From Vicinamibacteria bacterium (lineage in GTDB: Bacteria > Acidobacteriota > Vicinamibacteria > Vicinamibacterales > JAENWD01): a stretch of DNA of 64,000 nucleotides. Below, one piece after another: positions 5,962 to 56,040 of the stretch (the stretch's first letter is position 1; every line of letters starts with the position of its first letter). Location: NCBI GenBank assembly GCA_963743245.1, contig CAVUPP010000011.1, positions 514,473 to 578,472 of the forward strand. Direction: 5' to 3'. Position numbers and translations under genes: made by a program. The notes beneath the pieces were generated by a model. The model saw only the letters and a list, made by a program, of their open reading frames with translations, had not been told where the DNA came from and ran no database searches.

Positions 5962-6879
5962 ATGACCGAACTGCTGGCTCTGTCCGCCATCACGTTCGTC
6001 GCCGCGATCGTCAACGGAGCGCTCGGCTACGGGTTCTCCTCGTTGACGGTCCCGATGGCGCTGCTGTTCATGGCGAGCCGCGTCCTGAACCCCGCGCTCG
6101 TTCTGATCGAAGTCGTCCTCAACGCCTACGTCCTGTTCGTCAATCGAGACAGCCTGCCGCTGGTGTGGCGGCGCATGTTGCCGCTGGTGGTCGGACTTGC
6201 GCCGGGCGTGCTGATCGGGACGCAGCTCGTGGCCCGCGTCAATCCCTCGTGGATGAAGCTCGCGACGTTTGCGTGTCTGCTGCCATTGATCCTCGTCCAA
6301 GCGGCCGGCTACCGGCGGCCGATCGCGTGGAATCGATCGTTCGGGCTCTCGTTCGGCGCCGGATTGGGCGTCCTCTATTCGGTCACGACAATTTCAGGAC
6401 CGCCCCTGGCGGTGTTGCTCAGCAACCAGGGATACACCAAGCGCGAGTTCCGTGCGGCACTCGGTTTCGTCCGCGTCGCGGAGTCACTCATGACGGCGGC
6501 GGCGTACGTGTATGTCGGGCTGTTCACCTCCACCACGCTGACGCTCTCACTTCAAATCCTGCCAAGCCTGGCGATCGGTGTGCCACTTGGCGCGCTCCTC
6601 ATCCGACACATCCGCACGGAAACCTTCCGGCGCGTGTGTATGAGTTTCGACGCGTGGATCGTGGCCTTCGGCTTGGCGTCACTGCTGCGAGCCTTGCAGC
6701 TCACGGACGTGGGACCTGCTGCGGCCTTGTTCCTCACCGTGGTCGCCCTGGATCTCTGGCTGCTGTACCGCTTCTTCCGTGCCGCACGCGGATTCGAGCC
6801 GGCGGTGGACGGCAGCGATGGCCTGGACAGGCTCACGCCGACGGCAACTTCTCGTCGAGGTCGCTCGCCAGCGCTGTGA
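5962..6879 (+). CDS. TauE/SafE (DUF81) family anion exporter
   Basis: In-frame ATG 24 codons into ORF 5890..6879, 25 nt after the sulfotransferase stop. MTELLALSAITFVAAIVNGALGYGFSSL.., about 8 TM spans, ..SFGAGLGVLYSVTTISGPPL.. Confidence 0.85.
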   Translation: MTELLALSAITFVAAIVNGALGYGFSSLTVPMALLFMASRVLNPALVLIEVVLNAYVLFVNRDSLPLVWRRMLPLVVGLAPGVLIGTQLVARVNPSWMKLATFACLLPLILVQAAGYRRPIAWNRSFGLSFGAGLGVLYSVTTISGPPLAVLLSNQGYTKREFRAALGFVRVAESLMTAAAYVYVGLFTSTTLTLSLQILPSLAIGVPLGALLIRHIRTETFRRVCMSFDAWIVAFGLASLLRALQLTDVGPAAALFLTVVALDLWLLYRFFRAARGFEPAVDGSDGLDRLTPTATSRRGRSPAL

Positions 6880-7429
6880 GGTCCGGCTCTGCCAGCAGCT
6901 CCCGTACCTGAGTACGAAGCTCGTCGTCGCAGAGGCCCTGGCGCTCGGAGAGTCCGAACAGCATCTTCAGCATCACCGTGAGCTCGCGTTCGGCCAGCAG
7001 GTTCACTTGCAGATCGAGGTGTGCCCGCCTGTCGGTGAGCCGCGTCAGCTCGTTCTGTGCGATCAACACGAACAGCGTCAGGAAAATCGCCTCCAGGGAC
7101 ACGACGAGCGTCAGAAAGTTGAACGGGAACGGATCGAAGGGCTTGATGCGGGTGAGCAGTCCCGTATTGATCGCGATCCAGAGTGCGAAGCCGACGCCAT
7201 GAAGCGCCAGCGAGGTCGCCGAACCGATGGCCCGCGTCAAGGTGTCGCTGATCCTCGACATGAACCGGCGTTGCCGCAGCGCCTCTTCTTCGAGCCGTGC
7301 GACCTCGCGGACGCTCTTTCGCATGCCGGCGGTGAGCGCGTCGCCGGTGGTGACCGACGTGGACTCCGGCCGCCCTTGGGGCGTGACCGCGCGCCCGCGG
7401 CGGCGGGCGCGACCCTCAGTCCTCGGCAT
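6833..7429 (-). CDS. DUF1003 family membrane protein
   Basis: ORF 6833..7555 trimmed to ATG 7429 (MPRTEG..). The core ..IKPFDPFPFNFLTLVVSLEAIFLTLFVLIAQN.. is the DUF1003 signature. An alternative start is ATG 7324. Confidence 0.75.
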   Translation of the reverse strand: MPRTEGRARRRGRAVTPQGRPESTSVTTGDALTAGMRKSVREVARLEEEALRQRRFMSRISDTLTRAIGSATSLALHGVGFALWIAINTGLLTRIKPFDPFPFNFLTLVVSLEAIFLTLFVLIAQNELTRLTDRRAHLDLQVNLLAERELTVMLKMLFGLSERQGLCDDELRTQVRELLAEPDLTALASDLDEKLPSA

Positions 7430-7437
7430 GCCGTCGC

Positions 7438-7527
7438 TCAGCGGCCGCAGCCGGCGTGAGCGACCACATACCACAACACGATGACGCTGAACGGAATGCC
7501 TAGCAGCCAGCCGACGATGTACCGCAT
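7438..7527 (-). CDS. 29-aa single-TM micro-protein (hypothetical)
   Basis: Manual find, below the ORF-track size cut-off. ATG 7527 is preceded by GGAGGA. Product MRYIVGWLLGIPFSVIVLWYVVAHAGCGR. The stop lies 8 nt upstream of the DUF1003 start. Confidence 0.35.
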   Translation of the reverse strand: MRYIVGWLLGIPFSVIVLWYVVAHAGCGR

Positions 7528-7767
7528 GGATCCTCCAAGTGCGGCGATGCCGCACGATTCAGTGGAGGAGGTGGCAAGAAGGATGCCCCACGATGACGGG
7601 TCCGGTGTAGCAGTCGGAGCGACGAGATCGCTCCATCTCTGTGCACTTTCAGCAATGGGTGACGGCGCATGCTGCCGCGTCGCGCAGAATGTGCAACGGC
7701 CGTGGCAGGAATTACCTGCATGATCGGTGAGGGATCGTCGCTGATTCCAGCCAGCTGCCCGTGCTGC

Positions 7768-10700
7768 TCAGTCAAACGCCAGGACGGACGGCAGCGGGCC
7801 CGCGCCGAGTCTCAAGAGCACGTACCCGATCCCCGACAGGCCGTCGAAGAATCCAGGATTGATCACCTGCGGCACGTCAGTCGGATGAACACGGAACTCC
7901 GGCGCGTGTCGAAGCGCCTCGAGCGCCTGTTCACCTGCGGCGGCGTCGAGGTCCGGACGCCCGAGCAGGCTCGACGCACGCCGCAGGATGTCGAAGCGCC
8001 CGAAGCCTCCGCAGCAGACGTGATCGACGCTCTCTGGCTGTGGCCGTGCAGTCGTCTCCAACGCAGCGTTCAGTTCGTCCAGAACGGCGGGCATCTCGGC
8101 CGCGAGCGCAAGCCGCGCGAGCGCAATGCCAGGCGCACCGTGGCACCAGCTGGTCATGAACGCGGGCGAATCCGATTCGCGGCGATAGTCGATCCAGTTC
8201 CCGACGGATGGCACGTACGCAGCGCGCTCGAACTCGACCGCCTTTCGCGCGGCATCGATCAGATGGGCGCCGCCAGTCACCGCGTGCAGGCGAGCCAGCG
8301 CGTACGCGATTCCTGACGCGCCGTGCGAGAAGCCCGCGAGGGGGCGCGACGCGAATGTGCACGGCCAGCCGCCGGTATGCGGACCATCCAGGAGCTGATG
8401 GCTGCAGAGATGGCGCGCGCACGCAGATGCGTGCTCGAGAATCGACGTCAATGGCCGGGCCCGGTGAAGGGCGAGCACGCCGAGAATGGCGCCCGCGGAT
8501 CCGCCGATGACGTCGAACCCGCCATCCGCATCGATGGTGTCCGCAGCCACGGATCCGGCCAGCGCTTCGGCGTCGTCCAGCAGCGACGGCTCCTCCCGCC
8601 ACTCTGCGACTCGACTGAGAGCGTAGAGGATGCCACCGACACCTTCGGCGATCCCGAGCCCGGCACGGCGGACGAATTGCCGCGTGGCGTCTCGGTCGCG
8701 CAGCGTCTCACGAAGCGGCTGGAGTGCTCGGTCCATCGTCTCGCGATACCGGCCGTGCCCCGTCACCCGATCGCAGGCGGCCAGGAACAGCGCCACACCA
8801 GTCCGTCCGCCATAGAGACCGTCCGTCACGGGCTGCAACTGATAGCGGCCGATCTGAGGCAGATGCGTGAAGCCTTTCCAGCTCAGACTGCCGTCCGGAT
8901 TGTCGATAGCCTTGGACGCAATCCTGTCCGCTATCGCGAGCGCCGCTTCCGTGAATACCAGGCACGAGTGTGCGGACGCGGCCTGCATGGCAGCGACGTT
9001 CGCGAAAGCACCCCGATCACCACTCGGACCCACAATCTGTGAGGTTTCGAAATGGGACTCACCACGCGCGCGCCAGGCGTGCACGCTTGCTTCGATGAGC
9101 CGCACCTGCAGCTCGAGGCCTGCCTCGCTCATCGATTCCAACTGCGCGGCGACCTGGTCGTATCCGCTTCGCTCGAAGAAGCGTGGCACGACGACCTCGC
9201 CGTCGCAGCAGAGACTCGTGCCGGCTGCGATGGCGTCGAACCGCGGAAAATCGCCGCGTTCGAGCACGTCGCGCTCCGCCCGGATGACCGGCCAGCTATC
9301 TGCGTCGCTGTCGTTCAGGTAGCCGCGCCAGACGCGCTCGAGCTCGATGCTGCGATCGCAGCCGTTCCGCAGATACTCGGGCGTCAGAACGTGGCGCAGC
9401 ATGTGGCCGTAGTGTTCGGTACGGCGGAACACATACCGAATGGACTGACGGCTGAAAGCGGCGAGTGGACCGCCTTCTGCCAGCAGCGCCGGCCGATGTC
9501 GGACGATGAGCCGGTAGATTTCGCGAAAGCCGTCAACCAGTTCGCCAAGGTAGTCCGCGGGCGAAAGGGCCGTCCCGTCGAGCATGGCAGCGTTCGCCTG
9601 CGAGGGAAGGGCGACAGGCTCGTAATACACGTCCACATCGTCGGTATTGACGTCCTTCCAGCGCGCCACGGGCGCAGGTGTCTCCTGGGGACCGATGCCT
9701 CCGAGCGCGCTGATGTCGCACGGTGTCGTTGCCTGGGGCGCTTCCCAGTGAGGCAGCATGCCGACTCGAACCACCGAGTCCCAGAACGCCTGGTCAGAGA
9801 CGGGACGATCGCGCTCCGGGACCATCACTGTCTCCAGATCGATGAGGACAGGATGCTCTCCCGCGGCGACGACGTTCTCGTAATGACAGTCGGTGCCCAA
9901 CACCACGTGCAGGAGCGCGAGCAGCATGCCTGCACGCCTGTAGAATCGAGACGCCTTCGCCGCATCCGCACAAGGCCGCGGGTCGATCCATCGCACCCAA
10001 CCGTGATCGCCGCAGGTGAGTGTGGCGGCAGCATCGAGGGCCACTGACAGTCCCTGCTGATTGCACCAGTCAACGAGCTCTGCGAAGGCCCGATCGATCT
10101 CGACCGGACGTGGCTTGTAGGCCAGCACGAGCCCGTTTGCGAATGTCACCCTCATCACCGACCGGCCGCGCTGGTGCGGATCCGAGAGCCCCACGCGTAG
10201 ACCGACGACGCCGCCAGGCGACGCGCCCGGCGTGAGATCGAAGGCCGTCGCGATGGCAGGTGCATCGTCTCGAAGGGCGGACTGGAACTCCACACAGTGC
10301 TCGACCCAACCCTCGACGAGCGTTGACGTGAGCCGGCCGAGCACGGGGTACGACTCGAAGAACGGCAGCAGATCCGCAGACAGCAGTTGCGTGATGAACG
10401 CGTCGTAGTGATGGTGGCGGCCCCGGCCCGTTGCACCTACGAGCGTGTTCAGCAAGCTGTGCCCAGCCGGCCGGAACGACGAGAACTCCGCCAGCAGACT
10501 GAGCGCGCAGGTTTGCGCGAGACGATCGAGCAGTCCGATTTCGAGCGAACGGTACGCCTCGTCGCTCAGGCATCCGCGCGGTAGCTCGTTCCACAGCGAC
10601 TGTGGACTTCCGAGCGCGCGATGCAGGCGCCGTCTGGCCCCGAAGACGATCGGATGCAGCGCATCCTCGAACGGGCGCGGACGTTCGAGGTTCCGGCAGA

Positions 10701-11028
10701 TGATGCCGGGAGGGTGTTGCCGATACTCAGCGGTCGAGTCCAACAGATCGACGAGCACATCCAGCCATGGCGGCGACGGCGCGGGAGCATCCCCGTGCGC
10801 CAAGACGCCGCGCACGCGTAACTCTGTCAACCCGTCGATCGTCAATCGTCGAAGGAACAGATCCTGGTCGGCGCCCGCCACGACGCGCTGCCAGCGTGCG
10901 ACACGCGCATCGCTCTCCTCGCTCGCCGCAGTGAGTGGTTCCGTTGTGTCTTGGTGGAGCGCGAGACGTTCCCAGAGGGAGAGCGATCGGTCGGCGATTC
11001 GCCGCACGCGAGCCGTTGCCGCGCTCAT
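7768..11028 (-). CDS. lanM: class II lanthipeptide synthetase LanM, ProcM-like (three-Cys zinc site)
   Basis: 1086 aa. The C-terminal LanC-like cyclase carries GFSHGASGIAYAL, SWCHGAPGIALARL and VDHVCCGGFGRFDIL (CCG instead of the usual CHG). The ~650-aa N-terminal region has the size of a LanM dehydratase domain. Its ATG overlaps the upstream ORF stop (ATGA). Confidence 0.95.
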   Translation of the reverse strand: MSAATARVRRIADRSLSLWERLALHQDTTEPLTAASEESDARVARWQRVVAGADQDLFLRRLTIDGLTELRVRGVLAHGDAPAPSPPWLDVLVDLLDSTAEYRQHPPGIICRNLERPRPFEDALHPIVFGARRRLHRALGSPQSLWNELPRGCLSDEAYRSLEIGLLDRLAQTCALSLLAEFSSFRPAGHSLLNTLVGATGRGRHHHYDAFITQLLSADLLPFFESYPVLGRLTSTLVEGWVEHCVEFQSALRDDAPAIATAFDLTPGASPGGVVGLRVGLSDPHQRGRSVMRVTFANGLVLAYKPRPVEIDRAFAELVDWCNQQGLSVALDAAATLTCGDHGWVRWIDPRPCADAAKASRFYRRAGMLLALLHVVLGTDCHYENVVAAGEHPVLIDLETVMVPERDRPVSDQAFWDSVVRVGMLPHWEAPQATTPCDISALGGIGPQETPAPVARWKDVNTDDVDVYYEPVALPSQANAAMLDGTALSPADYLGELVDGFREIYRLIVRHRPALLAEGGPLAAFSRQSIRYVFRRTEHYGHMLRHVLTPEYLRNGCDRSIELERVWRGYLNDSDADSWPVIRAERDVLERGDFPRFDAIAAGTSLCCDGEVVVPRFFERSGYDQVAAQLESMSEAGLELQVRLIEASVHAWRARGESHFETSQIVGPSGDRGAFANVAAMQAASAHSCLVFTEAALAIADRIASKAIDNPDGSLSWKGFTHLPQIGRYQLQPVTDGLYGGRTGVALFLAACDRVTGHGRYRETMDRALQPLRETLRDRDATRQFVRRAGLGIAEGVGGILYALSRVAEWREEPSLLDDAEALAGSVAADTIDADGGFDVIGGSAGAILGVLALHRARPLTSILEHASACARHLCSHQLLDGPHTGGWPCTFASRPLAGFSHGASGIAYALARLHAVTGGAHLIDAARKAVEFERAAYVPSVGNWIDYRRESDSPAFMTSWCHGAPGIALARLALAAEMPAVLDELNAALETTARPQPESVDHVCCGGFGRFDILRRASSLLGRPDLDAAAGEQALEALRHAPEFRVHPTDVPQVINPGFFDGLSGIGYVLLRLGAGPLPSVLAFD

Positions 11029-12080
11029 TGTTGGCCGGTGATCGGATCGTTCGAGAACCAGTTGTGCCCGAAGCCGAGGTAGACCTTGACCTCGGGACCA
11101 TGGTCCGGATGGTAGGCGAGCTTGATGTGATTGATGGTACGCCAGACCATACTCGTAGCTCTGCCGCGAAACAGCAGATCACCGAGCGCAAGGTTGCCGG
11201 CCCATGCGCCGCCGGCGCGGCTTTCAGGTGTGAAGCCCGGCCAGGTGAGCAGGGAGTGTGCCTTCTCACGGCTTGCGAGGCCGCGCTCGGCGAGCAGATC
11301 GAACAGCGCCCGCCAGCGCGGCAGATTGTCGGTTTCGCGCCGCACGTAGAACTCCACACCGACCTTGTCACGAACGCAGGTGTCGACGTCAAGGTCCAGC
11401 AGGACCTCTGAATCCGCGATTTCCGCAATCGCTTCGACCAGCGGCACCAGCGTGCCTGCGGGATCGTGCCAGCCGATCGCATCGAGGTACGGCGCCACCA
11501 ACGTCACCGGGAACCGATCGAGGACGAGCCGGGTGGCGCTTCCGGGCCGCCCTGGCATCAACCCCATGTGCGCAAAGCGCGCTCCCGGCGGCAGTGCCAG
11601 CGCGCACCGCTCCAGCACGCCGCAAGGCAGGCGTGCGCGATAGCCGTCGAGTTCACCAGCGTCCGCAATCGCGGCGATATCGCACGCGTCAAGAGGCTGG
11701 TCGGTGTGAAGCTCGAGAAACAGGATCGGCGTCGGCGCCGCAGGCGGCGGGTTATCGAGATCGAACTCGAGGAAGATCAATCTGACGCGCGAATGAAGCG
11801 GATTGGATGGGTCCGCGACGGCGTCGCAGACTCGCCGGACTGTGCGCCACGCCGGATGCACCAGAAGCGCCGGCGAAAATTCAGGATTCGAATAGGGTAG
11901 ACGGACGAAGAAATCGACGTTGAGCTCGTCGTCGTGCAGCCGCACTTCGAGGCCGGCCAGCGAGCACGGAGGCAGCTGTCGGGCTAGTGTCCGGATGCGA
12001 GTCAGCGCACCCGGCGTCGCGATCGCCGCAGGCAGGTGCGGTGCGACGAGGGCCACGTAGCCCTCCATGGAGATGTCCAT
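11025..12080 (-). CDS. uncharacterised 351-aa protein translationally coupled to LanM; candidate tailoring enzyme with a possible PT-barrel/ABBA-like fold
   Basis: Intact ORF with AGGTGA 7 nt before the ATG and an ATGA overlap with lanM. No rSAM CxxxCxxC, P-loop, GxSxG, SAM-MTase, LanB/C/D/P/I or TM motifs. There are ten strand-like segments in five pairs: GLEVRLH/NVDFFVRL, RVRLIFLEFDL/PILFLELH, RFAHMGLMP/TRLVLDRF, EVLLDLDV/KVGVEFYVRR, HIKLAY/EVKVYLGF. The pairs are separated by amphipathic helical stretches. Confidence 0.85.
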   Translation of the reverse strand: MDISMEGYVALVAPHLPAAIATPGALTRIRTLARQLPPCSLAGLEVRLHDDELNVDFFVRLPYSNPEFSPALLVHPAWRTVRRVCDAVADPSNPLHSRVRLIFLEFDLDNPPPAAPTPILFLELHTDQPLDACDIAAIADAGELDGYRARLPCGVLERCALALPPGARFAHMGLMPGRPGSATRLVLDRFPVTLVAPYLDAIGWHDPAGTLVPLVEAIAEIADSEVLLDLDVDTCVRDKVGVEFYVRRETDNLPRWRALFDLLAERGLASREKAHSLLTWPGFTPESRAGGAWAGNLALGDLLFRGRATSMVWRTINHIKLAYHPDHGPEVKVYLGFGHNWFSNDPITGQQ

Positions 12081-12107
12081 CGATTGTCACCTGCCCGGTG
12101 AGTGCTG

Positions 12108-12135
12108 TCCGCGACCGGGGCAACCCGGTCGCGGA
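12108..12135 (-). promoter_or_regulatory. GC-rich stem-loop between the precursor genes and the modification genes (attenuator or mRNA-stability element)
   Basis: Perfect 12-bp inverted repeat TCCGCGACCGGG-(4 nt)-CCCGGTCGCGGA inside the 76-nt gap between the lanA1 stop (12157) and the 351-aa ORF start (12080). No U-tract follows it. Confidence 0.6.
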
Positions 12136-12156
12136 ACAGACCACGAATCTCCGGCG

Positions 12157-12342
12157 TCAGCAGCAGCCAAACAGCGTCGTCCACGCGCCGGTGCAGCCGT
12201 CGCTGGTCGCCTGCTTCGGTCGGCCACCCGCCACCTGCGCGAGCTGTGCATCGCTCAGCTCTTCGATTAAGTTCTTCTTGTTCTGCATCAACACGACGTT
12301 CACGTCGTCGGCGCTGAAGTGGTAGTCGTCCACGACCCTCAC
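12157..12342 (-). CDS. lanA: lanthipeptide precursor A1 (5'-truncated Nif11-type leader, GG cleavage motif)
   Basis: 61 aa: MRVVDDYHFSADDVNVVLMQNKKNLIEELSDAQLAQVAGG | RPKQATSDGCTGAWTTLFGCC. The core has 3 Cys and 5 Ser/Thr. GTG start; the weak SD makes the exact start uncertain. Confidence 0.85.
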   Translation of the reverse strand: MRVVDDYHFSADDVNVVLMQNKKNLIEELSDAQLAQVAGGRPKQATSDGCTGAWTTLFGCC

Positions 12343-12379
12343 ACCTCGATCGCGGACGACAACCGTTTGCGCGTCGAGT

Positions 12380-12677
12380 TCAGCAGGCGCCGAAGAGCGT
12401 CGTCCATGCGCTACCGCAGCCGTCCTTGGTCGCTGGCGGACGGCCGCCCGCGACCTGGGCGAGCTGGGCCTCGCTCAGTTCGCCGAGCGGATTCCTCTTG
12501 TTCTGCATCAGGACCGACGTCCACATCGTCTGCGGTGAACTGGTAGCCGTTGTCCTTGCCCACGCGGATGACCGACTGCGTAAAGGCGTTCTGATCCGTG
12601 ATGTTCTTGAGCTGGTCCTGCAGCTTCGCGTCACCCATGACCTTCGCCAGAAACTGATTGAGATTGGCCTGACTCAT
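12380..12677 (-). CDS. lanA: lanthipeptide precursor A2 with a full Nif11 leader; frame-interrupted by one extra nucleotide as assembled
   Basis: Frame 1 (12677 -> ~12515) reads MSQANLNQFLAKVMGDAKLQDQLKNITDQNAFTQSVIRVGKDNGYQFTADDVDV. The homologous continuation VLMQNKRNPLGELSEAQLAQVAGG | RPPATKDGCGSAWTTLFGAC* is in the next frame and stops at 12380. The span is 298 nt, so removing one G gives 297 nt = 98 aa + stop. GGAGGA lies upstream of the ATG. Confidence 0.85.
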
Positions 12678-12736
12678 GTTTTTCTCGTCCTCCGAAGCTC
12701 TAGTGTCCGATCCCGGTCGTTCGTAACGCGTCCGTC

Positions 12737-13273
12737 CTACTGCGCACCCCAGGGCCGCCGCTGCATCTCCGAGAACCTGAGCCCGGCCATGGATACATTC
12801 GCCATGAGATGCGGCGCGAGTTCATCCACGTCTTCCACGTTTTCATCGAGTTGCAGGCGTGGCGTACCGAGGTGACTCGTCGTTGTCCGGAGCCGATCGG
12901 CAAGGAACACGGCCAGCGCTCGATAGAAGCGCGCGGCGAATCCCACGTCGTCTCGCAGCTTTGCGGAGAGCGTCGCCCGGGGAATCGCGCCGACTTTTGA
13001 CTCGACTTCGGCGCGCACGCTCGCCACCGGTGGCCGAGCATCCACGAACGAGATCTCGCCCACGACGTCGCCTGCCTTGAGGACCGCAATCCTCGGCGCA
13101 GCTGGCGTGTGGACAACGAGCGCCCCGTCCAGCACGAAGTAGAGCCACTCGGTGGCCTTGCCCTGTTCGATGAGCTGATCCCCGGGGGCAAGCGTCATCT
13201 TCCGGCCGCTCCGGATCATCCACTCGAGGTCCCGGTCGTCGAGGATGCCGAGGAAATACAGTGCTCGTCTCAC
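12737..13273 (-). CDS. cyclic-nucleotide-binding domain protein (bacteriocin-transport-associated type)
   Basis: ORF 12737..13678 trimmed to GTG 13273, with GAGGA 6 nt upstream, 14 nt after the ABC stop. 178 aa. cNMP-binding beta-roll ..GDQLIEQGKATEWLYFVLDGALVV..KAGDVVGEISFVDARPPVASVRA.. Confidence 0.85.
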   Translation of the reverse strand: MRRALYFLGILDDRDLEWMIRSGRKMTLAPGDQLIEQGKATEWLYFVLDGALVVHTPAAPRIAVLKAGDVVGEISFVDARPPVASVRAEVESKVGAIPRATLSAKLRDDVGFAARFYRALAVFLADRLRTTTSHLGTPRLQLDENVEDVDELAPHLMANVSMAGLRFSEMQRRPWGAQ

Positions 13274-13287
13274 GATGTGTCCTCGCG

Positions 13288-15390
13288 TCAGGCGGTCTGT
13301 CTGCGGGCCAGGTCCGCAAACGGTCCTTCCTGTCGCATCAAATCCTGATACGTGCCTTGCTGGACGATCACGCCTCGGTCGAGGACGTAGATGTAGTCTG
13401 CATGAACGATCGTGCTGAGCCTGTGGGCGATGACGACCCGCGTGGCCTTCAGGCTCTCGAGGCTGTGACTGACGAGTGCCTGTGTCTCGTTGTCGAGTGC
13501 GCTCGTCGCCTCGTCGAACAGCAGCAGCGACGGCTTTCTGACAATCGCACGGGCGATCAGGACACGCTGCCGCTGACCACCCGACAAGCCGCTGCCGCCT
13601 TCGCCGAGCAGTGTGTGCATGCCCATGGGCATGTTCTCGATGTCGCGTTCGAGGCCCGCCATTTTTGCCGCGGTCCACGCGTCGTCCAGCGTCAGATAGG
13701 CGCTCGCTCCCGCGATGTTCTTGTAGAGCGAGTCGGCGAGAAGCCGTCCGCTTTGCAGCACTACGCCGATTTGCCGGCGTACGGCTTTGATATCGAGCGC
13801 TGACTGACTCCGGCCGTCGTACTTGACCTCGCCGGAGTCGGGCGCCTCGAATCCCATCAGCAGCCGGAAGAGCGTGGATTTGCCGCTGCCAGAGGGTCCG
13901 ACGATGGCGACGAACCTGCCGGCCGGGATATGCATCGTGATATCGCGCAGCACGAGCGGCGCGCCGGGGGCGTAGCGGAAGTTGACGTTCAAGACGTCGA
14001 TCGCACCGGTCAGGACGCCGGGGTCGGGCCTGCCGACGTCAACTTCCGGCACCGCTGAAAGGATGGGCTGCGCCCGTTCATACAGCGGGACGAGTGCCAG
14101 CAATCTGACTACCGCCGATCCGAGACCGAGCGCAGCCATCTGGAACTGCGCAAACGCGACATTGAAGGCGACGAATCCCCCAGTTGAGAGCTGGCTCTCT
14201 CCATGCGCGTTCAGCAGCCGCACGGTTGCCCAATAGACGACGGCAGCGCTGAGCACGGGCGCCACCGACGTGAACACCGCGTACGCGATCGACACCCGCC
14301 GCGCCCGCGCCGCGATCTGCTTCTTCCTGCTGAAGGCTGACGCCCACGCGGTAAACGCGCGCTCCTCGGCGGCCGCCACGCGCAGCTTCGAGATCCCGTT
14401 CACGAATTGCAGGAGCATCCCCGAGAGACGGCCCCCGATCGCGATCGTTTCGCGCTCCAAGCCGACCTGCACGTATCCGGTGAAGACCGTCACCAGCACC
14501 ATCACGAGGGCGAAGCACGCCGCCAGGAAGGCCAGGATGCCGCTGTAATAAAAGAGCAGCCCGAACGTGAAGATCGAAAAGACGCCTGCGAGCACGGTGG
14601 AGATGGCCGCTCCGGTCAGGACTTGACGCATCGCCGTAATGCTCAGACTTCTCGTCGCAAGGTCACCCGCCGCATAACGCCGGAAAAACGGTACCGGCAG
14701 TGCCAGCAGGCGATCCCACACCGCGGGCTGCAGCGAGGCGTCGATCTTGCCCTCCAGCCGTCGAACCGCAAAGCTCTGAGCCACCTGGAACATCGACGCG
14801 CCCACTGCCGCCACGGCCATCAATACAGTCAAGACGCGTACCTGGCCAGTGTCGGCACGTGGGATGACCGCATCGAAGAGAATGCCGGTCAAGACTGGCA
14901 GCGCCGTGGCCAGCGCACCGGCTGCGAGCCCCGTCATGGCGACGGTCGCGAGATCGCGCCCCAATCCCCTGAGACCGAACCGGAGCAGGTCGAGCCCTGT
15001 GACCGCCCGGGGCGGAAGGGGCCGATAGAAGCACCACGCAAACGGCTGGAGTGATGCCGCAACCGATTCAGTGAGCGGCGTGTGGCTGCCGGTCAGCGGA
15101 TCGTACAGGCGGTAGCGGCGGGGCGATACGGGCAGCAGCGCAACCGGGTTGCCATTGCTCTCGCGGCGGCCAATCATCGGGCCGACGTCTTCACTCCACC
15201 ACCCCTCCCTGAGTGCCACGACCCGTGTCCTGACGCCCGACGCCGACGCGATCGCCACGAGCGGATCGGCGCCGCCAGTCCTTGCCGGATCGGTGTTCGC
15301 CCGGAACTCGATCCCCGCCCGGCGTCCGACCTCGCGGCATGCCAGCAGCCACGGATCGCCGACGGCCGTCTCGGGCGATGTCGTGGACAT
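13288..15390 (-). CDS. ABC exporter (permease + ATPase), NHLM-bacteriocin type without a catalytic peptidase Cys
   Basis: ORF 13288..15936 trimmed to ATG 15390 (MSTTSPETAVGDPW..), which overlaps the upstream stop by 1 nt. 700 aa with a ~150-aa N-terminal extension and 6 TM. Walker A GPSGSGKST, signature LSGGQRQR, Walker B LLLFDEATSALD. Confidence 0.9.
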   Translation of the reverse strand: MSTTSPETAVGDPWLLACREVGRRAGIEFRANTDPARTGGADPLVAIASASGVRTRVVALREGWWSEDVGPMIGRRESNGNPVALLPVSPRRYRLYDPLTGSHTPLTESVAASLQPFAWCFYRPLPPRAVTGLDLLRFGLRGLGRDLATVAMTGLAAGALATALPVLTGILFDAVIPRADTGQVRVLTVLMAVAAVGASMFQVAQSFAVRRLEGKIDASLQPAVWDRLLALPVPFFRRYAAGDLATRSLSITAMRQVLTGAAISTVLAGVFSIFTFGLLFYYSGILAFLAACFALVMVLVTVFTGYVQVGLERETIAIGGRLSGMLLQFVNGISKLRVAAAEERAFTAWASAFSRKKQIAARARRVSIAYAVFTSVAPVLSAAVVYWATVRLLNAHGESQLSTGGFVAFNVAFAQFQMAALGLGSAVVRLLALVPLYERAQPILSAVPEVDVGRPDPGVLTGAIDVLNVNFRYAPGAPLVLRDITMHIPAGRFVAIVGPSGSGKSTLFRLLMGFEAPDSGEVKYDGRSQSALDIKAVRRQIGVVLQSGRLLADSLYKNIAGASAYLTLDDAWTAAKMAGLERDIENMPMGMHTLLGEGGSGLSGGQRQRVLIARAIVRKPSLLLFDEATSALDNETQALVSHSLESLKATRVVIAHRLSTIVHADYIYVLDRGVIVQQGTYQDLMRQEGPFADLARRQTA

Positions 15391-17540
15391 CAGCTCGTCC
15401 TGATGAGACGGGCATACGCCCCGTCTTTCGCGACCAGCGCGTCGTGCGTCCCGCGCTCCACGACGACGCCTCGCTCGAGCACGATGATCTCGTCGCAATC
15501 TCTGATCGTGCTGAGCCGATGAGCGACTACGAGACAGGTGCACCGGCGCCGGCGGATGGCGTCGATCACGCGTTGCTCGGTGAGCGAATCGAGCGCACTC
15601 GTCGCCTCGTCGAGCACGAGGATGCGGGGATTCCGGGTGAGGGCGCGCGCGATTTCCAGCCGCTGGCGTTGTCCGCCGCTGAAGTTCCGGCCCTGCTCCT
15701 CGATCTGATGGCCGTAGCCTGAGGGGTACTCCAGGATGTCGTCGTGGATGCAGGCGTCCCTGGCGGCCTGGATGACATCGGCCTCGTCGATGCGCTCGTC
15801 CCACAGCGTGAGATTGTCGCGAATCGTGCCTTCGAAGAGCGTGATGTCTTGATCGACCAGCGCGATGGATCGTGACACGCGGCTGCGCGGCACCTGGCTG
15901 CGCGGTTGGCCGTCGAACAGCACGTCGCCCTCCCACACCTTGTACAAGCCAGTCACAAGCCGCGCGAGCGTCGACTTGCCGCTGCCCGACTCTCCAACGA
16001 GCGCCACCTGCTGTCCTGCCTTCACCGCAAGGTTGAAGTCAGTGATTAGCGGCGGATCCAGGCGGCTGTACCCGAACGTCACACCGCGTACGTCCACGGC
16101 GCCTTGCAGCGGTTCGATGGGTTCTGCCGCATCCGCCGAAGGTCTGGCCAACGGATCCCGTGGATACCGCAGGACATCATCGAGACGCGTGAGGTCGCCG
16201 CCGGCCTCCTGCAGCGCTCCTCCCAGCAACACCAGCCGATTGGCCGGGTCGATGAAGCTCTGCATCAAGCTCTGAAACGCAATCAACATCCCCATCGTCA
16301 GGACGCCATCGATGATCCGGACGCTGCCGATGCCGACAATGACCGCGGCGTTGAGGGATGTGAGGAGCGGCGGCACGGCCGACAGATACTCGGCGACGGC
16401 TCCCAGGTGACCTTCCGAGGTCACCACTTTGGCGTGATAGCCGGCCCATGTGCTGAAGAACTCCGATTCAGCGCCGGAGGCTTTGAGCGTCTCGAGCGTC
16501 TGCAGGCCAGCCATCGACGCGCCGACCAACTTGCCGCGCTCTTGCAGCAGGCGCAGGCTCGTGTCGCGCCGCCGGCGGGCCAGCAGCCGCAGAACAACGA
16601 GATTCGTCAGGGCAACGGCGACGCCGATCGCTGTGAGCATCGGGTCGTACCGGAACATCAGGGCGGCGAAGAATCCCACCATGGCGATGTTGACCAGGCT
16701 GGTCGCGAGATCGCCTGACAGCAGGACGGCGACACTGTCGTTGATCTCGACGCGTGACACGAGATCGCCACCGAAGCGCTGCGCGAAGAACTCGACGGGC
16801 AGCTGCAACAGGTGCCAGAAGAACCGTCGCGATCCGTCAACCGCGAGTTTGAGCTCCAGTCGCAGCAATCCCCGCTGTTGCAGGTAGGTCAGTGCTCCTC
16901 GCGCGATGGCGGTCACGACCATGGCCGCGACGAGCGGCGTCAACCAGGCTGGCGCACCGGGAACCAGGATGTGGTCGATGAAGATGCGTGAGAACGCCGG
17001 CACCAGCAAGCCCGGCAGGACCAGCGCCAGCGTCGCGAGCGCGAGAAACGCGAGTGCTGCGCGGCTGCCCGGCAGCCGGCTGGCGAGTGATCGCAGCACC
17101 GAGGGCTTGGCGCCGCCGGGCGCGAATGCAGGTCCACGTTCGAAGCCCAGGACCACGCCCGTGAACGATTCGTCGAACTCGCGATCCGGCACTGCTCGCG
17201 GACCAAACGCCGGGTCGTTGATATAGGCGAGGCCGGCGCCGAAGCCTTCGACCACGACGAAGTGGTTGAAGTTCCAGAACGCAATCATTGGGGCGGGGAA
17301 GTCCCGCAGCTGGTCGGCGTCCTTCGAATATCCCTTGCAGAGCAGGCCGAACGAGCGTGCAGCCTTGACGATGTTCAGGGCCTTGCTGCCATCGCGCGAG
17401 ACGCCGCAGGCCACGCGAAGCTCTTCGAGCGGCACGAACCGTCCGAAGTAGCCGAGCACCATTCCCAAGGCGGCGGCCCCACATTCGGCCGCCTCCATCT
17501 GTATGACGGTGGGCGTGCGCGCGCGCTGACGCTTCGGCAC
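15390..17540 (-). CDS. lanT: bifunctional C39-peptidase / ABC exporter (LanT/AMS type; NHLM peptidase/ATP-binding protein)
   Basis: 716 aa. The N-terminal C39 domain has the Cys in VIQMEAAECGAAALGMVL and the His in FWNFNHFVVVEG. 6 TM. Walker A GESGSGKST, FSGGQRQR, ILVLDEATSALD. Confidence 0.95.
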   Translation of the reverse strand: MPKRQRARTPTVIQMEAAECGAAALGMVLGYFGRFVPLEELRVACGVSRDGSKALNIVKAARSFGLLCKGYSKDADQLRDFPAPMIAFWNFNHFVVVEGFGAGLAYINDPAFGPRAVPDREFDESFTGVVLGFERGPAFAPGGAKPSVLRSLASRLPGSRAALAFLALATLALVLPGLLVPAFSRIFIDHILVPGAPAWLTPLVAAMVVTAIARGALTYLQQRGLLRLELKLAVDGSRRFFWHLLQLPVEFFAQRFGGDLVSRVEINDSVAVLLSGDLATSLVNIAMVGFFAALMFRYDPMLTAIGVAVALTNLVVLRLLARRRRDTSLRLLQERGKLVGASMAGLQTLETLKASGAESEFFSTWAGYHAKVVTSEGHLGAVAEYLSAVPPLLTSLNAAVIVGIGSVRIIDGVLTMGMLIAFQSLMQSFIDPANRLVLLGGALQEAGGDLTRLDDVLRYPRDPLARPSADAAEPIEPLQGAVDVRGVTFGYSRLDPPLITDFNLAVKAGQQVALVGESGSGKSTLARLVTGLYKVWEGDVLFDGQPRSQVPRSRVSRSIALVDQDITLFEGTIRDNLTLWDERIDEADVIQAARDACIHDDILEYPSGYGHQIEEQGRNFSGGQRQRLEIARALTRNPRILVLDEATSALDSLTEQRVIDAIRRRRCTCLVVAHRLSTIRDCDEIIVLERGVVVERGTHDALVAKDGAYARLIRTS

Positions 17541-17543
17541 GAG

Positions 17544-18359
17544 CTACCTCGATGGCGGGGCGTCAAGACCGGGAACGACGAGGCTCAACGGACGCTGCTC
17601 GCGGATCACGATCTCGGCATGGCAGGGCACTGTCTGCGCCGGCAGCGTCGCGTCGCGGCTCACGAGGGCGTACACCGCGATGCGCGGTTCTGCCCCGCGT
17701 TGAGCGCCGTCTACGATTCCAGGTGCTGTTGCAACGAACTCGACCCGTGCTGCCAGCACGTGCGCGTCCTCACCGGCGCCGACGCGAATCGTTACGGACA
17801 TCCCGCGTCGCACCTGTTGCGCCCGTGCGGGTTCGAGATACAGCACGGCCTCCGGCCGATCGTGCTCGGGGCGCAGCGTGACGATCGGGCTTCCGGCTGG
17901 AACGGTCGCCCCCACCGACACCGCCACGCGATCCACGCGTCCGGTGTAGGGACTGACCACTCCTCCCAACGAGTCCAACTGCTGCCCGAGGAGCGCGAGC
18001 TCTTTCGGGTTCGTTCGCGCCGCTTGCAACCGATCGAGGAGCTGAGGCGTCGCGACGATGGCAATGACCTGCCCGGCGGCGACGCGGTCGCCGATCCCGG
18101 CGCGAAGGTCCGAGACCTGGCCTGCGAGGGGCGAGGGAATGGACCGGACGCCGCCTGACGCGACCAGGATGCCGGATGCCTCGACCGTGGTGGTGATACG
18201 CCCCCAGTAACCCCACCCGAGAGCGGCACCAAGACAGAGCAGCAGGGCAGTCAACGCGAGCCACGTGCGAGGCGCCGTGACCCGAAGGAGCTGATCGAGC
18301 TGCTCGGGCGACGACATGCGGTCGAGGGCCGCCTTCCGGAAAATCCGGTTTGCATCCAT
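17544..18359 (-). CDS. HlyD-family secretion adaptor (NHLM bacteriocin secretion protein type)
   Basis: ORF 17544..18398; the likely start is ATG 18359 (MDANRIFRKAALDRMSSPEQLDQLLRV..). Single TM LALTALLLCLGAALGW, then a lipoyl/beta-barrel region. A 3-nt gap separates it from the next gene. Confidence 0.85.
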   Translation of the reverse strand: MDANRIFRKAALDRMSSPEQLDQLLRVTAPRTWLALTALLLCLGAALGWGYWGRITTTVEASGILVASGGVRSIPSPLAGQVSDLRAGIGDRVAAGQVIAIVATPQLLDRLQAARTNPKELALLGQQLDSLGGVVSPYTGRVDRVAVSVGATVPAGSPIVTLRPEHDRPEAVLYLEPARAQQVRRGMSVTIRVGAGEDAHVLAARVEFVATAPGIVDGAQRGAEPRIAVYALVSRDATLPAQTVPCHAEIVIREQRPLSLVVPGLDAPPSR

Positions 18360-18468
18360 CGTTCGTCCGGGCGCGGCAGCGGGAAGAGGCCGTCCCACCG
18401 CGAATCGCGGAGGAGCTTATCCGGCGCCCTGCGCCCACGCAAGGCATCCGCGAGTTGATTGATGTACC

Positions 18469-21879: not shown

Positions 21880-22989
21880 ATGGGTCGCCTCTCTCTTTCG
21901 TCGATCGCACCTCGCCTGCACACGCCACCGTGCGTGCTGCTCGTTGTCCTGTGCGTCGCGTCTCTCCTGGATAGCGCTGCACTTGCGCAGGGCCGGCGCA
22001 AAGTCATCATCGACCAGGACGGTGCGGGGCCTGGCGGCACCGACATGCAGGCCATCGCGGCGATCGTGAACTCGCCGGCTGCCGAGGTGCTGGGCATCTG
22101 CGTCCTCACCGGCGACGCATGGCGGGACGAAGAAGTCCAGCACACGCTGCGGTTGTTGGAGGTCCTGGGGCGGACCGACATCCCTGTGCTGCCGGGCGCG
22201 GTGTTCCCGCTCCTCAACAACAAGGAGTTCATCGCCCGGTGGGAGACCCTGTACGGCAAGGTGCCGTATCAGGGAGCGTGGAACTACGGCCGGCCGACCG
22301 TGCACGGACCGTACGAGGTCCCGCCGCTCGCCGAAGGCCAGCCGACGACCAAACCGTCGGCCGAGTCGGCCGCGGCGTTCCTCGTGCGCACGGTGCGCCA
22401 GTTCCCTCACGAGGTCACGGTGTACACCGCTGGCCCGATGACCAACCTCGCGCTCGCTGCCGGCCTGGACCCTCAGTTTCCCGAGCTGACCAACGAGCTG
22501 GTGGTGATGGGCGGCAGCATTCGTCCGGTGACCGACGATCCGCAGTTCGGTCCTTCAGCCCGCCGTGAGTTCAACTTCTGGATGGATCCCGAAGCCGCGC
22601 ATATGGTGCTGCATGCCCGCTGGCCACGGGTGACGCTGACTACCGTCGATATCTCAGTGAAGACGCGAATGGACAAGCGTCTCATCGCCGAGCTGACGCG
22701 CGCGTCGACACCGGGCGCGCAATACCTCGCGAAGTACGCCGAGGAGAGTTATCTGTGGGACGAGATCGCCGCCGTCGCGTGGCTGGATCCAAGCCTGATC
22801 ACAAAGACACGCCGCCTCTACGTCGACGTGGATGTGGATCATGGCGCCGGATACGGTGAGACCCTCGCCTGGGAGCCCGGACACCAACCGGGCCTGGGCG
22901 AGCAGCTCGTGGACGTGCAGGAGGATCTGGACCGGGAGCGCTTCTATCGCACGTTCGTGGAGCTGCTCTCACGTCCAGCGTCGCGGTGA
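21880..22989 (+). CDS. inosine/uridine-preferring nucleoside hydrolase family protein, secreted
   Basis: 369 aa. Signal peptide, then KVIIDQDGAGPGGTDMQAI (the Asp cluster of IUNH) and ..VTVYTAGPMTNLALA.. Confidence 0.85.
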   Translation: MGRLSLSSIAPRLHTPPCVLLVVLCVASLLDSAALAQGRRKVIIDQDGAGPGGTDMQAIAAIVNSPAAEVLGICVLTGDAWRDEEVQHTLRLLEVLGRTDIPVLPGAVFPLLNNKEFIARWETLYGKVPYQGAWNYGRPTVHGPYEVPPLAEGQPTTKPSAESAAAFLVRTVRQFPHEVTVYTAGPMTNLALAAGLDPQFPELTNELVVMGGSIRPVTDDPQFGPSARREFNFWMDPEAAHMVLHARWPRVTLTTVDISVKTRMDKRLIAELTRASTPGAQYLAKYAEESYLWDEIAAVAWLDPSLITKTRRLYVDVDVDHGAGYGETLAWEPGHQPGLGEQLVDVQEDLDRERFYRTFVELLSRPASR

Positions 22990-52641: not shown

Positions 52642-52715
52642 CCGCCGGCGAGCCGGAGCACGACTTACAGCGCCGTCAGTCACTGACGTTCACCCCTTCG
52701 ACTTAGGACTGCCCG

Positions 52716-56006: not shown

Positions 56007-56040
56007 AGCAGGCGTTCGCGACGCGGCATGGCGCACATGG

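What the first reader, a model, noticed from the sequence alone, without database searches (positions are those of the whole stretch)
12157..12677. Tandem precursor pair: one copy frame-broken by a single extra G, the other a 5'-truncated duplicate with a relic of the Nif11 domain upstream of its start
A2 holds a complete Nif11 leader (MSQANLNQFLAKVMGDAKLQDQLKNITDQNAFTQSVIRVGKDNGYQFTADDVDV). The rest (VLMQNKRNPLGELSEAQLAQVAGG|RPPATKDGCGSAWTTLFGAC) is in the next frame.

DNA alignment with A1:
- A1: GACGACGTGAACGTC-GTGTTGATGCAGAACAAG
- A2: GACGATGTGGACGTCGGTCCTGATGCAGAACAAG

This shows one extra G at about 12514-12515. The span is 298 nt, so deleting one nucleotide gives exactly 98 aa + stop.

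A1 starts at a GTG only 37 nt after the A2 stop and has a 40-aa leader. Read upstream of that GTG, the A1 frame gives ..ELDAQTVVVRDRG-VRVVDDYHFSADDV, which still resembles the C-terminal half of the Nif11 domain (..NAFTQSVIRVGKDNGYQFTADDV). A1 therefore looks like a duplicate that lost the N-terminal half of its leader.

The cores share (T/S)xDGC ... AWTTLFGxC. This implies a conserved N-terminal small ring and a C-terminal TT..C(C) ring.

Open questions: whether a half-length leader is still recognised by LanM and the C39 domain, and whether A2 is really broken.
Basis: seen in the sequence. Interest (0 to 1): 0.6.

Follow-up and report, generated by a model that had tools for sequence, protein, structure and literature searches.

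The report
Lanthipeptide precursor pair: artefact plus deletion
Two adjacent antibiotic-like peptide genes are real, but the "broken" one is most likely a one-base assembly error. The "short" one is a leftover of a 262-bp deletion that probably killed it, so the finding is largely ordinary.

Summary
A2 (12380-12677, minus strand) is split between two frames by one extra G at 12514/12515. A1 (12157-12342) lacks most of the Nif11 leader. Both sit in a standard Nif11/NHLM class II lanthipeptide cluster.

- **The A2 break is probably an assembly artefact.** Three relatives that are 98.9-99.5% identical carry an intact 98-aa A2. The extra G is the only indel against L001 over 3.2 kb, and L011 shows none over 7.2 kb. 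The 64-kb window holds at least 11 more frame breaks in seven other genes, and 10 of the 12 breaks are net +1, like this one. The A2 core downstream shows only synonymous changes.
- **The A1 truncation is real.** Contig L011 carries a full-length 99-aa A1. The window, L001 and L012 share a 262-bp deletion that removed 129 nt of spacer (including the ribosome-binding site) and 44 codons. A fourth contig has the same gene layout, but its DNA could not be read.
- **The supposed Nif11 relic is not one.** It is the former A2-A1 spacer, a 13-bp hairpin whose loop holds the proposed GTG start. A1 is probably a dead remnant.

In passing: the unannotated 351-aa gene between A1 and LanM is predicted to be an ABBA-fold prenyltransferase.

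The parts
12380..12677 (-). A2, a Nif11-leader lanthipeptide precursor. It is 298 nt as assembled and encodes 98 aa once one G is removed.
   Evidence: The repaired protein scores 46.1 bits against TIGR03798 (cutoff 32.3). Intact orthologues are in L001, L012 and ERR11592903.
12514..12515 (-). The GG dinucleotide, one base of which is extra. This is the frame break, a net +1.
   Evidence: It is the only gap in the 3181-nt alignment to L001. Against L012 it is one of two indel sites; the other breaks the transporter gene in L012, not in the window. The relatives read GTCGTACTG or GTGGTTCTG here.
12688..12693 (-). GGAGGA ribosome-binding site of A2, 10 nt upstream of the ATG.
   Evidence: Read directly from the sequence.
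12325..12360 (-). Hairpin just after the A2 stop: a 13-bp stem with the 10-nt loop GAGGUGUGAG. The loop contains the proposed A1 GTG (12342-12340).
   Evidence: -33.3 kcal/mol, z -2.84. The same hairpin is present in the L011 spacer.
12323..12329 (-). Junction of the 262-bp deletion, at an imperfect microhomology (ACGACT versus ACGGCT).
   Evidence: L011 positions 159-420 are absent from the window, L001 and L012.
12157..12342 (-). A1 ORF as listed (61 aa from the GTG). Only 12157-12324 (55 codons plus the stop) derives from the original 99-aa A1. The first 6 codons are former spacer.
   Evidence: A1 gives no TIGR03798 or PF07862 hit.
12105..12140 (-). Hairpin after the A1 stop (11-12 bp GC stem, 4-nt loop). 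A similar hairpin follows the single precursor gene of L002.
   Evidence: -41.8 kcal/mol, z -3.19 for the window; z -5.3 for L002.
11025..12080 (-). 351-aa protein with no detectable sequence relatives of known function. It is predicted to be an ABBA-fold prenyltransferase, and its stop overlaps the LanM start (ATGA).
7768..11028 (-). LanM, the class II lanthipeptide synthetase.
   Evidence: DUF4135 and LANC_like domains. TIGR03897, 797.6 bits against a cutoff of 304.
12737..13270 (-). Cyclic-nucleotide-binding, bacteriocin-transport-associated protein. The start codon is approximate.
   Evidence: PF00027. (TIGR03896, 119 bits, below the cutoff; matches the C-terminal half of the profile).
13288..15390 (-). 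NHLM export ABC transporter, permease/ATPase subunit.
   Evidence: TIGR03797, 906 bits against a cutoff of 709.
15390..17540 (-). C39-peptidase ABC transporter (PCAT), which cleaves after the double glycine.
   Evidence: Peptidase_C39. TIGR03796, 1043 bits against a cutoff of 853.
17544..18398 (-). HlyD-type secretion adaptor. It is short: 284 aa against a 421-position profile.
   Evidence: TIGR03794, 143.9 bits, just under the cutoff of 156.2.

Best explanation
The locus is the precursor part of an ordinary Nif11/NHLM-type class II lanthipeptide cluster. The host is probably an Acidobacteriota (Vicinamibacterales-like) soil bacterium.

**Gene order on the minus strand:** HlyD adaptor, C39-ABC transporter, second ABC transporter, cNMP-binding protein, A2, A1, a predicted prenyltransferase, LanM.

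**Inferred pathway.** A2 is the working precursor. Its Nif11 leader docks LanM, which would make a small ring (Thr/Ser to Cys in ATxDGC) and a C-terminal ring (TT...C). It probably also docks the prenyltransferase, whose likely target is the conserved Trp. The C39 transporter then cuts after the double glycine and exports the peptide.

**A2 frame break.** The single extra G that splits A2 in this assembly is most likely one of many 1-nt insertion errors in an indel-prone assembly, not biology (about 0.8).

**A1.** A1 began as a full-length tandem paralogue, 78% identical to A2 in DNA, with its own ribosome-binding site. In the lineage of the window a 262-bp deletion occurred between two imperfect 6-8-nt repeats, starting 1 nt after the hairpin that follows A2. 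It removed 129 nt of spacer, the ribosome-binding site, the ATG and 44 codons. What remains is an ORF with no proper initiation signal and no structured Nif11 nucleus. It is most likely an untranslated or poorly translated remnant (about 0.7).

**Shown:** the sequence anatomy, the deletion, the intact orthologues and the other frame breaks.
**Inferred:** that the break is an error, that A1 is not expressed, the ring pattern and the prenylation.
For: **A2 break as an artefact**
- A2 is intact (98 aa) in L001 (98.9% identical), L012 (99.5%) and a Logan ERR11592903 contig whose 351-aa protein is identical to the window's.
- The extra G is the only indel in 3181 nt against L001. There is no indel in 7173 nt against L011.
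- Pfam domains are split between reading frames in seven other genes of the window. These are an alpha/beta hydrolase, an AP_endonuc_2 protein, a hybrid histidine kinase, an outer-membrane receptor (at least 4 breaks), an MFS transporter (2 breaks), an apiosidase and a 3-keto-disaccharide hydrolase.
- 10 of the 12 breaks are net +1.
- The kinase break is an extra C in TTC[C]GAC, which interrupts the motif QQPF|DLRECVEE.
- Downstream of the break, A2 differs from its relatives only by synonymous changes: 3 synonymous and 0 non-synonymous.

**A1 deletion**
- L011 holds the full-length A1 (P0037) with a 185-nt spacer and a GGAG ribosome-binding site.
- The junction is identical in the window, L001 and L012.
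- The ERR11592903 contig has the same gene layout (98-aa, 58-aa and 351-aa genes), but its DNA could not be read.

**A1 expression is doubtful**
- The GTG lies in the loop of a 13-bp hairpin, and GAGG is only 1 nt away.
- The second GTG (12333) is GCG in L001 and L011.
- All 3-4 substitutions among the truncated alleles are non-synonymous, including CCG to the rare TTA.
- Truncated A1 no longer matches TIGR03798 or PF07862.

**Cluster identity:**

**Literature**
- The C39 domain LahT150 needs only the last ~13 leader residues (PMC6363468).
- The LanM DprM does not accept N-terminally truncated NHLP leaders (PMC12537861).
- The prenyltransferase MppC does not accept a delta(1-55) Nif11-like leader, although MppM still made the ring in that substrate (PMC12715784).
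Against: - No reads are available, so the extra G cannot be proven to be an error.
- The 11.3 kb around the cluster that could be compared with relatives shows no other indel in the window. The other breaks cluster mainly at 52-59 kb, and no close relative was available to show that they are assembly-specific (one search found nothing).
- L012 itself has a 2-nt deletion in the transporter gene. Real erosion of this cluster within the population is therefore conceivable.
- The A1 ORF is still open, its double-glycine and L(X)4L motifs and its core are intact, and the deletion allele is found in three (probably four) assemblies. Residual function is not excluded.
- Start codons in hairpin loops can sometimes be used.
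Confidence: 0.65

Rival explanations
1. The extra G is a real, strain-specific mutation. A2 is a very recent pseudogene. With A1 already truncated, this strain would be a non-producer that still keeps the modification and export genes, either as an eroding cluster or as a 'cheater' in a producing population.
For: - The frame break is present in the deposited assembly. The exact 88-aa frameshifted product, P0026, is on record from NCBI/ENA.
- Close relatives show other damage in the same cluster: the A1 deletion and a 2-nt deletion in the transporter gene of L012.
- No other indel is seen in the window across the 11.3 kb that could be compared.
Against: - There are at least 11 further frame breaks in seven unrelated conserved genes within 64 kb, with the same +1 bias.
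- There is no downstream decay; only synonymous differences occur after the break.
- Three near-identical strains have A2 intact.
Confidence: 0.2
2. Truncated A1 is a functional short-leader precursor. It would be translated from the GTG in the hairpin loop, or by re-initiation after A2. Its retained L(X)4L-GG leader tail would still be recognised by LanM and the C39 domain. It would yield a second product, possibly unprenylated because the prenyltransferase needs the lost leader nucleus.
For: - The ORF is open in every assembly that carries it, and the deletion allele occurs in three, probably four, independent assemblies.
- LSDAQLAQVAGG and the core are intact.
- C39 domains need only about 13 leader residues (PMC6363468).
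- Delta(1-55) MppE was still cyclised by MppM in co-expression (PMC12715784).
- There is a weak hit to the short-leader type-A lantibiotic family PF04604 (E 0.009).
Against: - The native ribosome-binding site and ATG are deleted.
- GAGG is only 1 nt from the GTG, and the start is embedded in a 13-bp GC-rich hairpin.
- There are 0 synonymous against 3-4 non-synonymous changes, including a rare TTA codon.
- Divergence among the alleles is only about 1%, so an open ORF says little.
- A related LanM (DprM) rejects leaders that lack the structured nucleus (PMC12537861).
Confidence: 0.15
3. A2 is decoded through a programmed +1 ribosomal frameshift or by transcriptional slippage, so the break is regulatory.
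For: Only that both halves are intact and the required shift is a single base.
Against: - The extra base is absent from all three close relatives and from all 25 full-length family members.
- The site GAC GUC GGU CCU has no slippery codon, no stop or rare codon in the A site, and no homopolymer.
Confidence: 0.01

Closest known systems
Nif11-like leader peptide RiPP precursors with the NHLM export system (Haft, Basu & Mitchell 2010; TIGR03798 with TIGR03794/03796/03797). The prochlorosin ProcA/ProcM system is the best-known class II lanthipeptide example (from my own knowledge).
   Same: - Long leader of about 78 aa with an N-terminal Nif11 domain, an L(X)4L motif and a double-glycine site.
- A LanM synthetase.
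- A C39-ABC transporter, a second ABC subunit and a HlyD adaptor.
- Tandem precursor genes with similar leaders.
Repaired A2 and the full-length A1 allele pass the TIGR03798 cutoff.
   Different: - The core family RPxATSDGCGSAWTTLFG[W/P/A]C is uncharacterised. A full-text search for WTTLFG found nothing.
- The hosts appear to be Acidobacteriota, not cyanobacteria.
- There are only one or two precursors per cluster, not dozens.
- Truncated A1 fails the family model.
The mpp cluster of Moorena producens PAL: Nif11-like precursor MppE, LanM MppM and ABBA prenyltransferase MppC (Wakeel, McShan & Agarwal, JACS 2025, PMC12715784).
   Same: - A Nif11-type leader, a class II synthetase and an alpha-beta-beta-alpha prenyltransferase in one cluster.
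- Trp in the core.
- That work tested a leader lacking its structured nucleus (delta 1-55). The ring was still made but prenylation was lost, which is the closest experimental analogue of truncated A1.
   Different: - The prenyltransferase assignment here rests on a predicted fold only.
- No sequence similarity to any Pfam, NCBIfam or PDB entry was found.
- Relatedness to MppC was not tested.
- The best structural matches are DMATS-type indole prenyltransferases rather than cyanobactin prenyltransferases.
- The core is different, with two predicted rings.
Short double-glycine leaders of lacticin 481-type lantibiotics (PF04604).
   Same: The retained part of A1 (MQNKKNLIEELSDAQLAQVAGG plus core) looks like such a leader. 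It gives a weak PF04604 hit (E 0.009, 16.3 bits against a cutoff of 21.7).
   Different: The hit is below the family cutoff. The short form arose by a recent deletion of a Nif11 leader, not by descent from short-leader precursors.

Membership tests
Nif11-like leader peptide RiPP precursor (TIGR03798 / PF07862) | N-terminal Nif11 domain scoring above the family cutoff | tested here: met
   Repaired A2 scores 46.1 bits and the full-length A1 allele P0037 46.9 bits, against a cutoff of 32.3. The A2 5' frame gives PF07862, E 1.8e-11.
Nif11-like leader peptide RiPP precursor (TIGR03798 / PF07862), applied to A1 as it stands in the window | N-terminal Nif11 domain | tested here: not met
   The 61-aa A1 gives no TIGR03798 or PF07862 hit. 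44 of its 78 leader codons are deleted.
Nif11/NHLM bacteriocin system | Double-glycine cleavage motif, and co-location with the C39-ABC, second ABC and HlyD export genes | tested here: met
   VAGG| is present in both peptides. TIGR03796 scores 1043 bits and TIGR03797 906 bits, both above cutoff. TIGR03794 scores 143.9, just under its cutoff of 156.2.
Class II lanthipeptide | LanM synthetase adjacent to the precursors, and Ser/Thr plus Cys in the core | tested here: met
   TIGR03897 scores 797.6 bits against a cutoff of 304. The cores contain T/S and 2-3 Cys.
Class II lanthipeptide | Thioether (lanthionine) rings actually formed | not testable with these tools
   This needs MS/NMR of a product. 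The ring pattern is inferred from conserved T/S and C positions.
Prenylated lanthipeptide (mpp-like) | ABBA-fold prenyltransferase encoded in the cluster | tested here: met
   The AF2 model has pLDDT 86 and shows five alpha-alpha-beta-beta repeats. The top 26 Foldseek PDB hits are aromatic or indole prenyltransferases, prob 1.0, TM 0.5-0.58. The gene is conserved between precursor and LanM in 11 of 11 loci. This is fold-level evidence only.
Prenylated lanthipeptide (mpp-like) | Sequence homology to MppC or other known peptide prenyltransferases, and demonstrated prenyl transfer to the core | tested here: inconclusive
   There is no Pfam, NCBIfam or PDB sequence hit. Activity is not testable here.
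Programmed ribosomal frameshift site | Shift site conserved in orthologues, with a slippery or hungry codon context | tested here: not met
   The extra base is absent in L001, L012 and all 25 full-length homologues. There is no slippery sequence.
Two-component lantibiotic | Two dissimilar cores, usually with two LanM enzymes | tested here: not met
   There is one LanM. The two cores are close variants of one family.

The most novel reading that the evidence does not exclude
The 262-bp deletion allele is maintained, not just tolerated. A1 would be translated at a low level from the GTG exposed in the hairpin loop. Its leader keeps only the L(X)4L-GG tail, so it would still be cyclised and exported but would escape the leader-nucleus-dependent prenyltransferase. 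One cluster would then make a prenylated product (from A2) and an unprenylated one (from A1). That would be a natural 'leader truncation' switch, segregating as a polymorphism alongside the full-length allele in the same soil population (L011 and L012 come from one sample).
Probability: 0.08. Interest if true: 0.6.

Novelty: new member of a known kind. Interest (0 to 1): 0.22.

Why it matters
As a biological claim it matters little. A frame-broken precursor that is probably an assembly error, next to a decayed paralogue, is routine. Two practical points follow.

1. Short RiPP precursor genes in indel-prone assemblies are easily lost or mis-called. Here the record carries an 88-aa nonsense product instead of a 98-aa precursor. 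Genome-mining counts from such assemblies need frame-aware searches.
2. The mapped deletion shows that an apparent protein-level 'relic' can simply be a translated spacer hairpin.

The surrounding cluster is of more interest. It represents an uncharacterised, strongly conserved core family from Acidobacteriota-like soil bacteria. The family is always paired with a predicted ABBA prenyltransferase that has no detectable sequence relatives of known function. This would extend the recently described prenylated Nif11-lanthipeptides beyond cyanobacteria. It also offers natural full-length and truncated leader alleles for testing leader dependence.

Tried and rejected
- **Exact-sequence look-ups.** Look-ups of A1 (61 aa), of the 88-aa A2 product and of a 369-aa neighbour (21880-22989) found nothing. 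The source record's name and sequencing platform could therefore not be established. No close relative was obtained for the other broken genes.
- **Genome scan.** The species-representative genome scan returned only one distant locus, Acidobacteria MAG SJ70. The source genome is not in that collection.
- **L002 and L013 as evidence of recurrent A2 breakage.** P0028 is frame-broken 15 nt upstream of the window's site. I rejected it as evidence because those contigs are full of frame breaks in every gene.
- **Programmed frameshift.** Rejected because the site is not conserved and has no slippery context.
- **A1 deletion as a mis-assembly of tandem repeats.** Rejected. The junction joins spacer sequence to codon 44, not homologous positions, and it is identical in three independent assemblies.
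- **Promoter and terminator scan of 11950-12900.** It found no sigma-70-like promoter and no U-tailed terminator on the coding strand.
- **Literature search for the core motif WTTLFG.** No paper found. Hubrich et al. 2024 (PMC11484575) is not held in the library.
- **Error motif.** Both resolved insertions, in A2 and in the kinase, are a doubled C in front of GAC on the + strand. Two cases are too few to call this a motif.

Full report
**What is in the sequence.** The finding lies on the minus strand. A2 occupies 12380-12677, which is 298 nt. The frame that starts at the ATG (12677) encodes a Nif11 domain (PF07862, E 1.8e-11) and then runs into nonsense, ending at 12411. The next frame holds VLMQNKRNPLGELSEAQLAQVAGG|RPPATKDGCGSAWTTLFGAC and the stop at 12380. 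Removing one G of the GG at 12515-12514 gives a 98-aa peptide. A1 (12157-12342) is listed from a GTG 37 nt after the A2 stop and encodes 61 aa.

**Context.** The pair sits in a canonical Nif11/NHLM class II lanthipeptide cluster, all on the minus strand:
- HlyD adaptor, 17544-18398.
- C39-ABC transporter, 15390-17540 (TIGR03796, 1043 bits).
- Second ABC subunit, 13288-15390 (TIGR03797, 906 bits).
- cNMP-binding transport-associated protein, about 12737-13270.
- A2 and A1.
- A 351-aa ORF, 11025-12080, with no Pfam or NCBIfam hit.
- LanM, 7768-11028 (TIGR03897, 798 bits).

Repaired A2 passes the TIGR03798 'leader_Nif11' cutoff (46.1 against 32.3). The 61-aa A1 does not hit it at all.

**The precursor family.** A search with repaired A2 found 25 intact full-length homologues of 98-103 aa, 57-86% identical, E 1e-50 to 1e-28. 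The alignment shows a strongly conserved core, RPxATSDGCGSAWTTLFG[W/P/A]C. Most related loci carry a single precursor. The only named sources are Acidobacteria MAGs. No paper in the held library contains the core motif.

**Is A2 really broken?** Four lines of evidence bear on this.
1. *Close relatives are intact.*
   - L001 (Logan ERR11592905) is 98.93% identical over 3181 nt. Its single gap is this base, and it encodes an intact 98-aa A2.
   - L012 (JGI 3300079526) is 99.5% identical and reads GTCG-TACTG where the window has GTCGGTCCTG.
   - A third contig (Logan ERR11592903), whose 351-aa protein is identical to the window's, also has a 98-aa gene followed by a 58-aa gene.
   - L011 matches the window over 7173 nt without a gap.
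2. *The window is full of frame breaks.* A codon-position GC scan flagged abutting frame switches. Pfam confirmed that single domains are split between frames in seven other genes:
   - an alpha/beta hydrolase (~21030);
   - an AP_endonuc_2 protein (~32483);
   - a hybrid histidine kinase (~46362), where an extra C in TTC[C]GAC interrupts ...QQPF|DLRECVEE...;
   - a CarboxypepD_reg/Plug/OMP_b-brl_4 receptor (52.7-56.1 kb, at least 4 breaks);
   - an MFS transporter (2 breaks);
   - an apiosidase (~58446);
   - a 3-keto-disaccharide hydrolase (~59218).

   That makes at least 11 breaks plus A2 in 64 kb, about one per 5 kb. 10 of the 12 are net +1, like A2.
3. *There is no decay after the break.* Compared with L001, the A2 codons after the break differ by 3 synonymous and 0 non-synonymous changes, and the encoded core is identical.
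4. *A second 'broken' orthologue is not informative.* P0028 on L002 is broken 15 nt away, but it sits on a contig where every gene is shattered, as on L013. Those record names (contig_NNNNN) suggest to me long-read assemblies; this is an inference.

Taken together, the extra G is most likely an assembly insertion error (my estimate about 0.8). Without reads this cannot be proven. A programmed frameshift is excluded in practice because the site is not conserved and has no slippery context.

**What A1 is.** The 90%-identity cluster that contains the A1 orthologue also contains a 99-aa protein, P0037. Its contig, L011, comes from the same JGI sample as L012 and is 99.65% identical to the window downstream. 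It shows the ancestral layout: the A2 stop, a 185-nt spacer with a GGAG ribosome-binding site, a full-length Nif11-leader A1, the 351-aa gene and LanM.

The window, L001 and L012 lack L011 positions 159-420, which is 262 bp. That comprises 129 nt of spacer and the first 133 nt (44 codons plus 1 nt) of A1. The deletion is joined at the imperfect repeat ACGACT/ACGGCT. It recurs in three independent assemblies, and probably in a fourth with the same gene layout. It joins non-homologous positions. It is therefore real and not a collapsed repeat.

Over 2805 shared nucleotides the window differs from L011 by 15 positions, from L001 by 22, and L011 from L001 by 25. The deletion is thus a polymorphism within a population that is about 99% identical.

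**The 'relic'.** They fold into a 13-bp hairpin (12360-12348 pairing with 12337-12325; -33.3 kcal/mol, z -2.8). Its 10-nt loop, GAGGUGUGAG, contains the proposed GTG. Comparable hairpins follow A1 and the single precursor of L002. They look like the usual post-precursor stem-loops of lantibiotic operons, which is an inference. The resemblance to the Nif11 C-terminal half is therefore coincidental. Only the part from YHFSADDV onward is A1-derived.

**Is A1 still a gene?**
- *Against:*
  - Its ribosome-binding site and ATG are gone.
  - GAGG is only 1 nt from the GTG, and the codons after the GTG form the 3' arm of the hairpin.
  - The alternative GTG at 12333 is GCG in L001 and L011.
  - All changes among the alleles are non-synonymous: Q46H, then P to L through CCG to the rare TTA, and W to C.
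  - The structured Nif11 nucleus is lost.
- *For:*
  - The ORF is open.
  - The L(X)4L-GG tail and the core are intact.
- *From the literature:*
  - A C39 domain needs only about 13 leader residues (PMC6363468).
  - The LanM DprM rejects NHLP leaders lacking the nucleus (PMC12537861).
  - In the closest system, delta(1-55) MppE was still cyclised by MppM but was not accepted by the prenyltransferase MppC (PMC12715784).

I consider A1 a probable remnant (about 0.7). If it is expressed at all, it would at best give an unprenylated product.

**Side finding.**
- The 351-aa ORF has 26 relatives, all annotated as 'hypothetical'.
- It is found between precursor and LanM in 11 of 11 loci with enough flank.
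- Its AF2 model (pLDDT 86, pTM 0.87) has five alpha-alpha-beta-beta repeats.
- The top 26 Foldseek PDB matches are all aromatic or indole ABBA prenyltransferases: 5-DMATS, IptA, PriB, DMATS1, TleC and CloQ, with prob 1.0 and TM 0.5-0.58.
- No sequence-level link exists.
- With an invariant Trp in the core, a Trp-prenylated lanthipeptide is a reasonable prediction. It would resemble the mpp system (PMC12715784), but activity and homology to MppC are untested.

**Verdict.**
- The relic reading is wrong.
- The A2 break is most likely an assembly artefact.
- The locus is a new member of a known kind (Nif11-leader class II lanthipeptides, probably prenylated).
- The specific finding is of low interest.

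Noticed in passing
window 11025-12080 (-): A 351-aa ORF between A1 and LanM (ATGA overlap with the LanM start) has no Pfam, NCBIfam or PDB sequence match. Its AF2 model (pLDDT 86) has an ABBA prenyltransferase fold, and the best PDB matches are indole prenyltransferases. It is conserved between precursor and LanM in 11 of 11 related loci, and the core has an invariant Trp. This suggests a prenylated lanthipeptide family in Acidobacteriota-like bacteria.
   Followed up: partly
window ~21030, ~32483, ~46362, 52707-56152, 55999-57294, ~58446, ~59218: At least 11 further frame breaks split single Pfam domains between reading frames. The genes affected are an alpha/beta hydrolase, an AP_endonuc_2 protein, a hybrid histidine kinase, an outer-membrane receptor, an MFS transporter, an apiosidase and a 3-keto-disaccharide hydrolase. 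10 of the 12 breaks (counting A2) are net +1. This points to an indel-prone assembly.
   Followed up: yes
L012 position ~159 / window 16258-16259: The JGI contig L012 lacks an AG dinucleotide inside the C39-ABC transporter gene, which is intact in the window. This is either an error in that assembly or real erosion of the cluster in that strain.
   Followed up: partly
window 17544-18398 (-): The HlyD-type adaptor is only 284 aa against a 421-position TIGR03794 profile. It scores 143.9 bits (cutoff 156.2), and the middle of the profile (about 105-290) is unmatched. It may be a naturally short variant or another damaged gene.
   Followed up: no
window 12325-12360 and ~12105-12140 (-); L002 ~2690-2722: GC-rich hairpins without U tracts directly follow each precursor gene (z -2.8, -3.2 and -5.3). 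The left end of the A1 deletion lies 1 nt after the first hairpin.
   Followed up: partly
L010 1-455: A tandem of two different Nif11 precursors. The second has an unrelated core (KNGGLTIFRCGESYTTDYGPC) and is followed by the same 351-aa gene family.
   Followed up: no
P0027 (120 aa, JGI): A family member with a 28-aa N-terminal extension. Its core lacks the ATSDGCGS segment (GGARSQAWTTLFGWCN), so it would have only the C-terminal ring.
   Followed up: no
window 12268-12270 (A1 codon 25): Three adjacent substitutions, CCG to TTA (Pro to Leu, a rare codon in a 65% GC genome). They are shared by the window and L012 but not by L001 or L011.
   Followed up: partly
window 6833-7555 (-) and L011 5315-7587: DUF1003, TauE and sulfotransferase genes lie downstream of LanM and are conserved in the close relatives. 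Whether they belong to the cluster is unknown.
   Followed up: no
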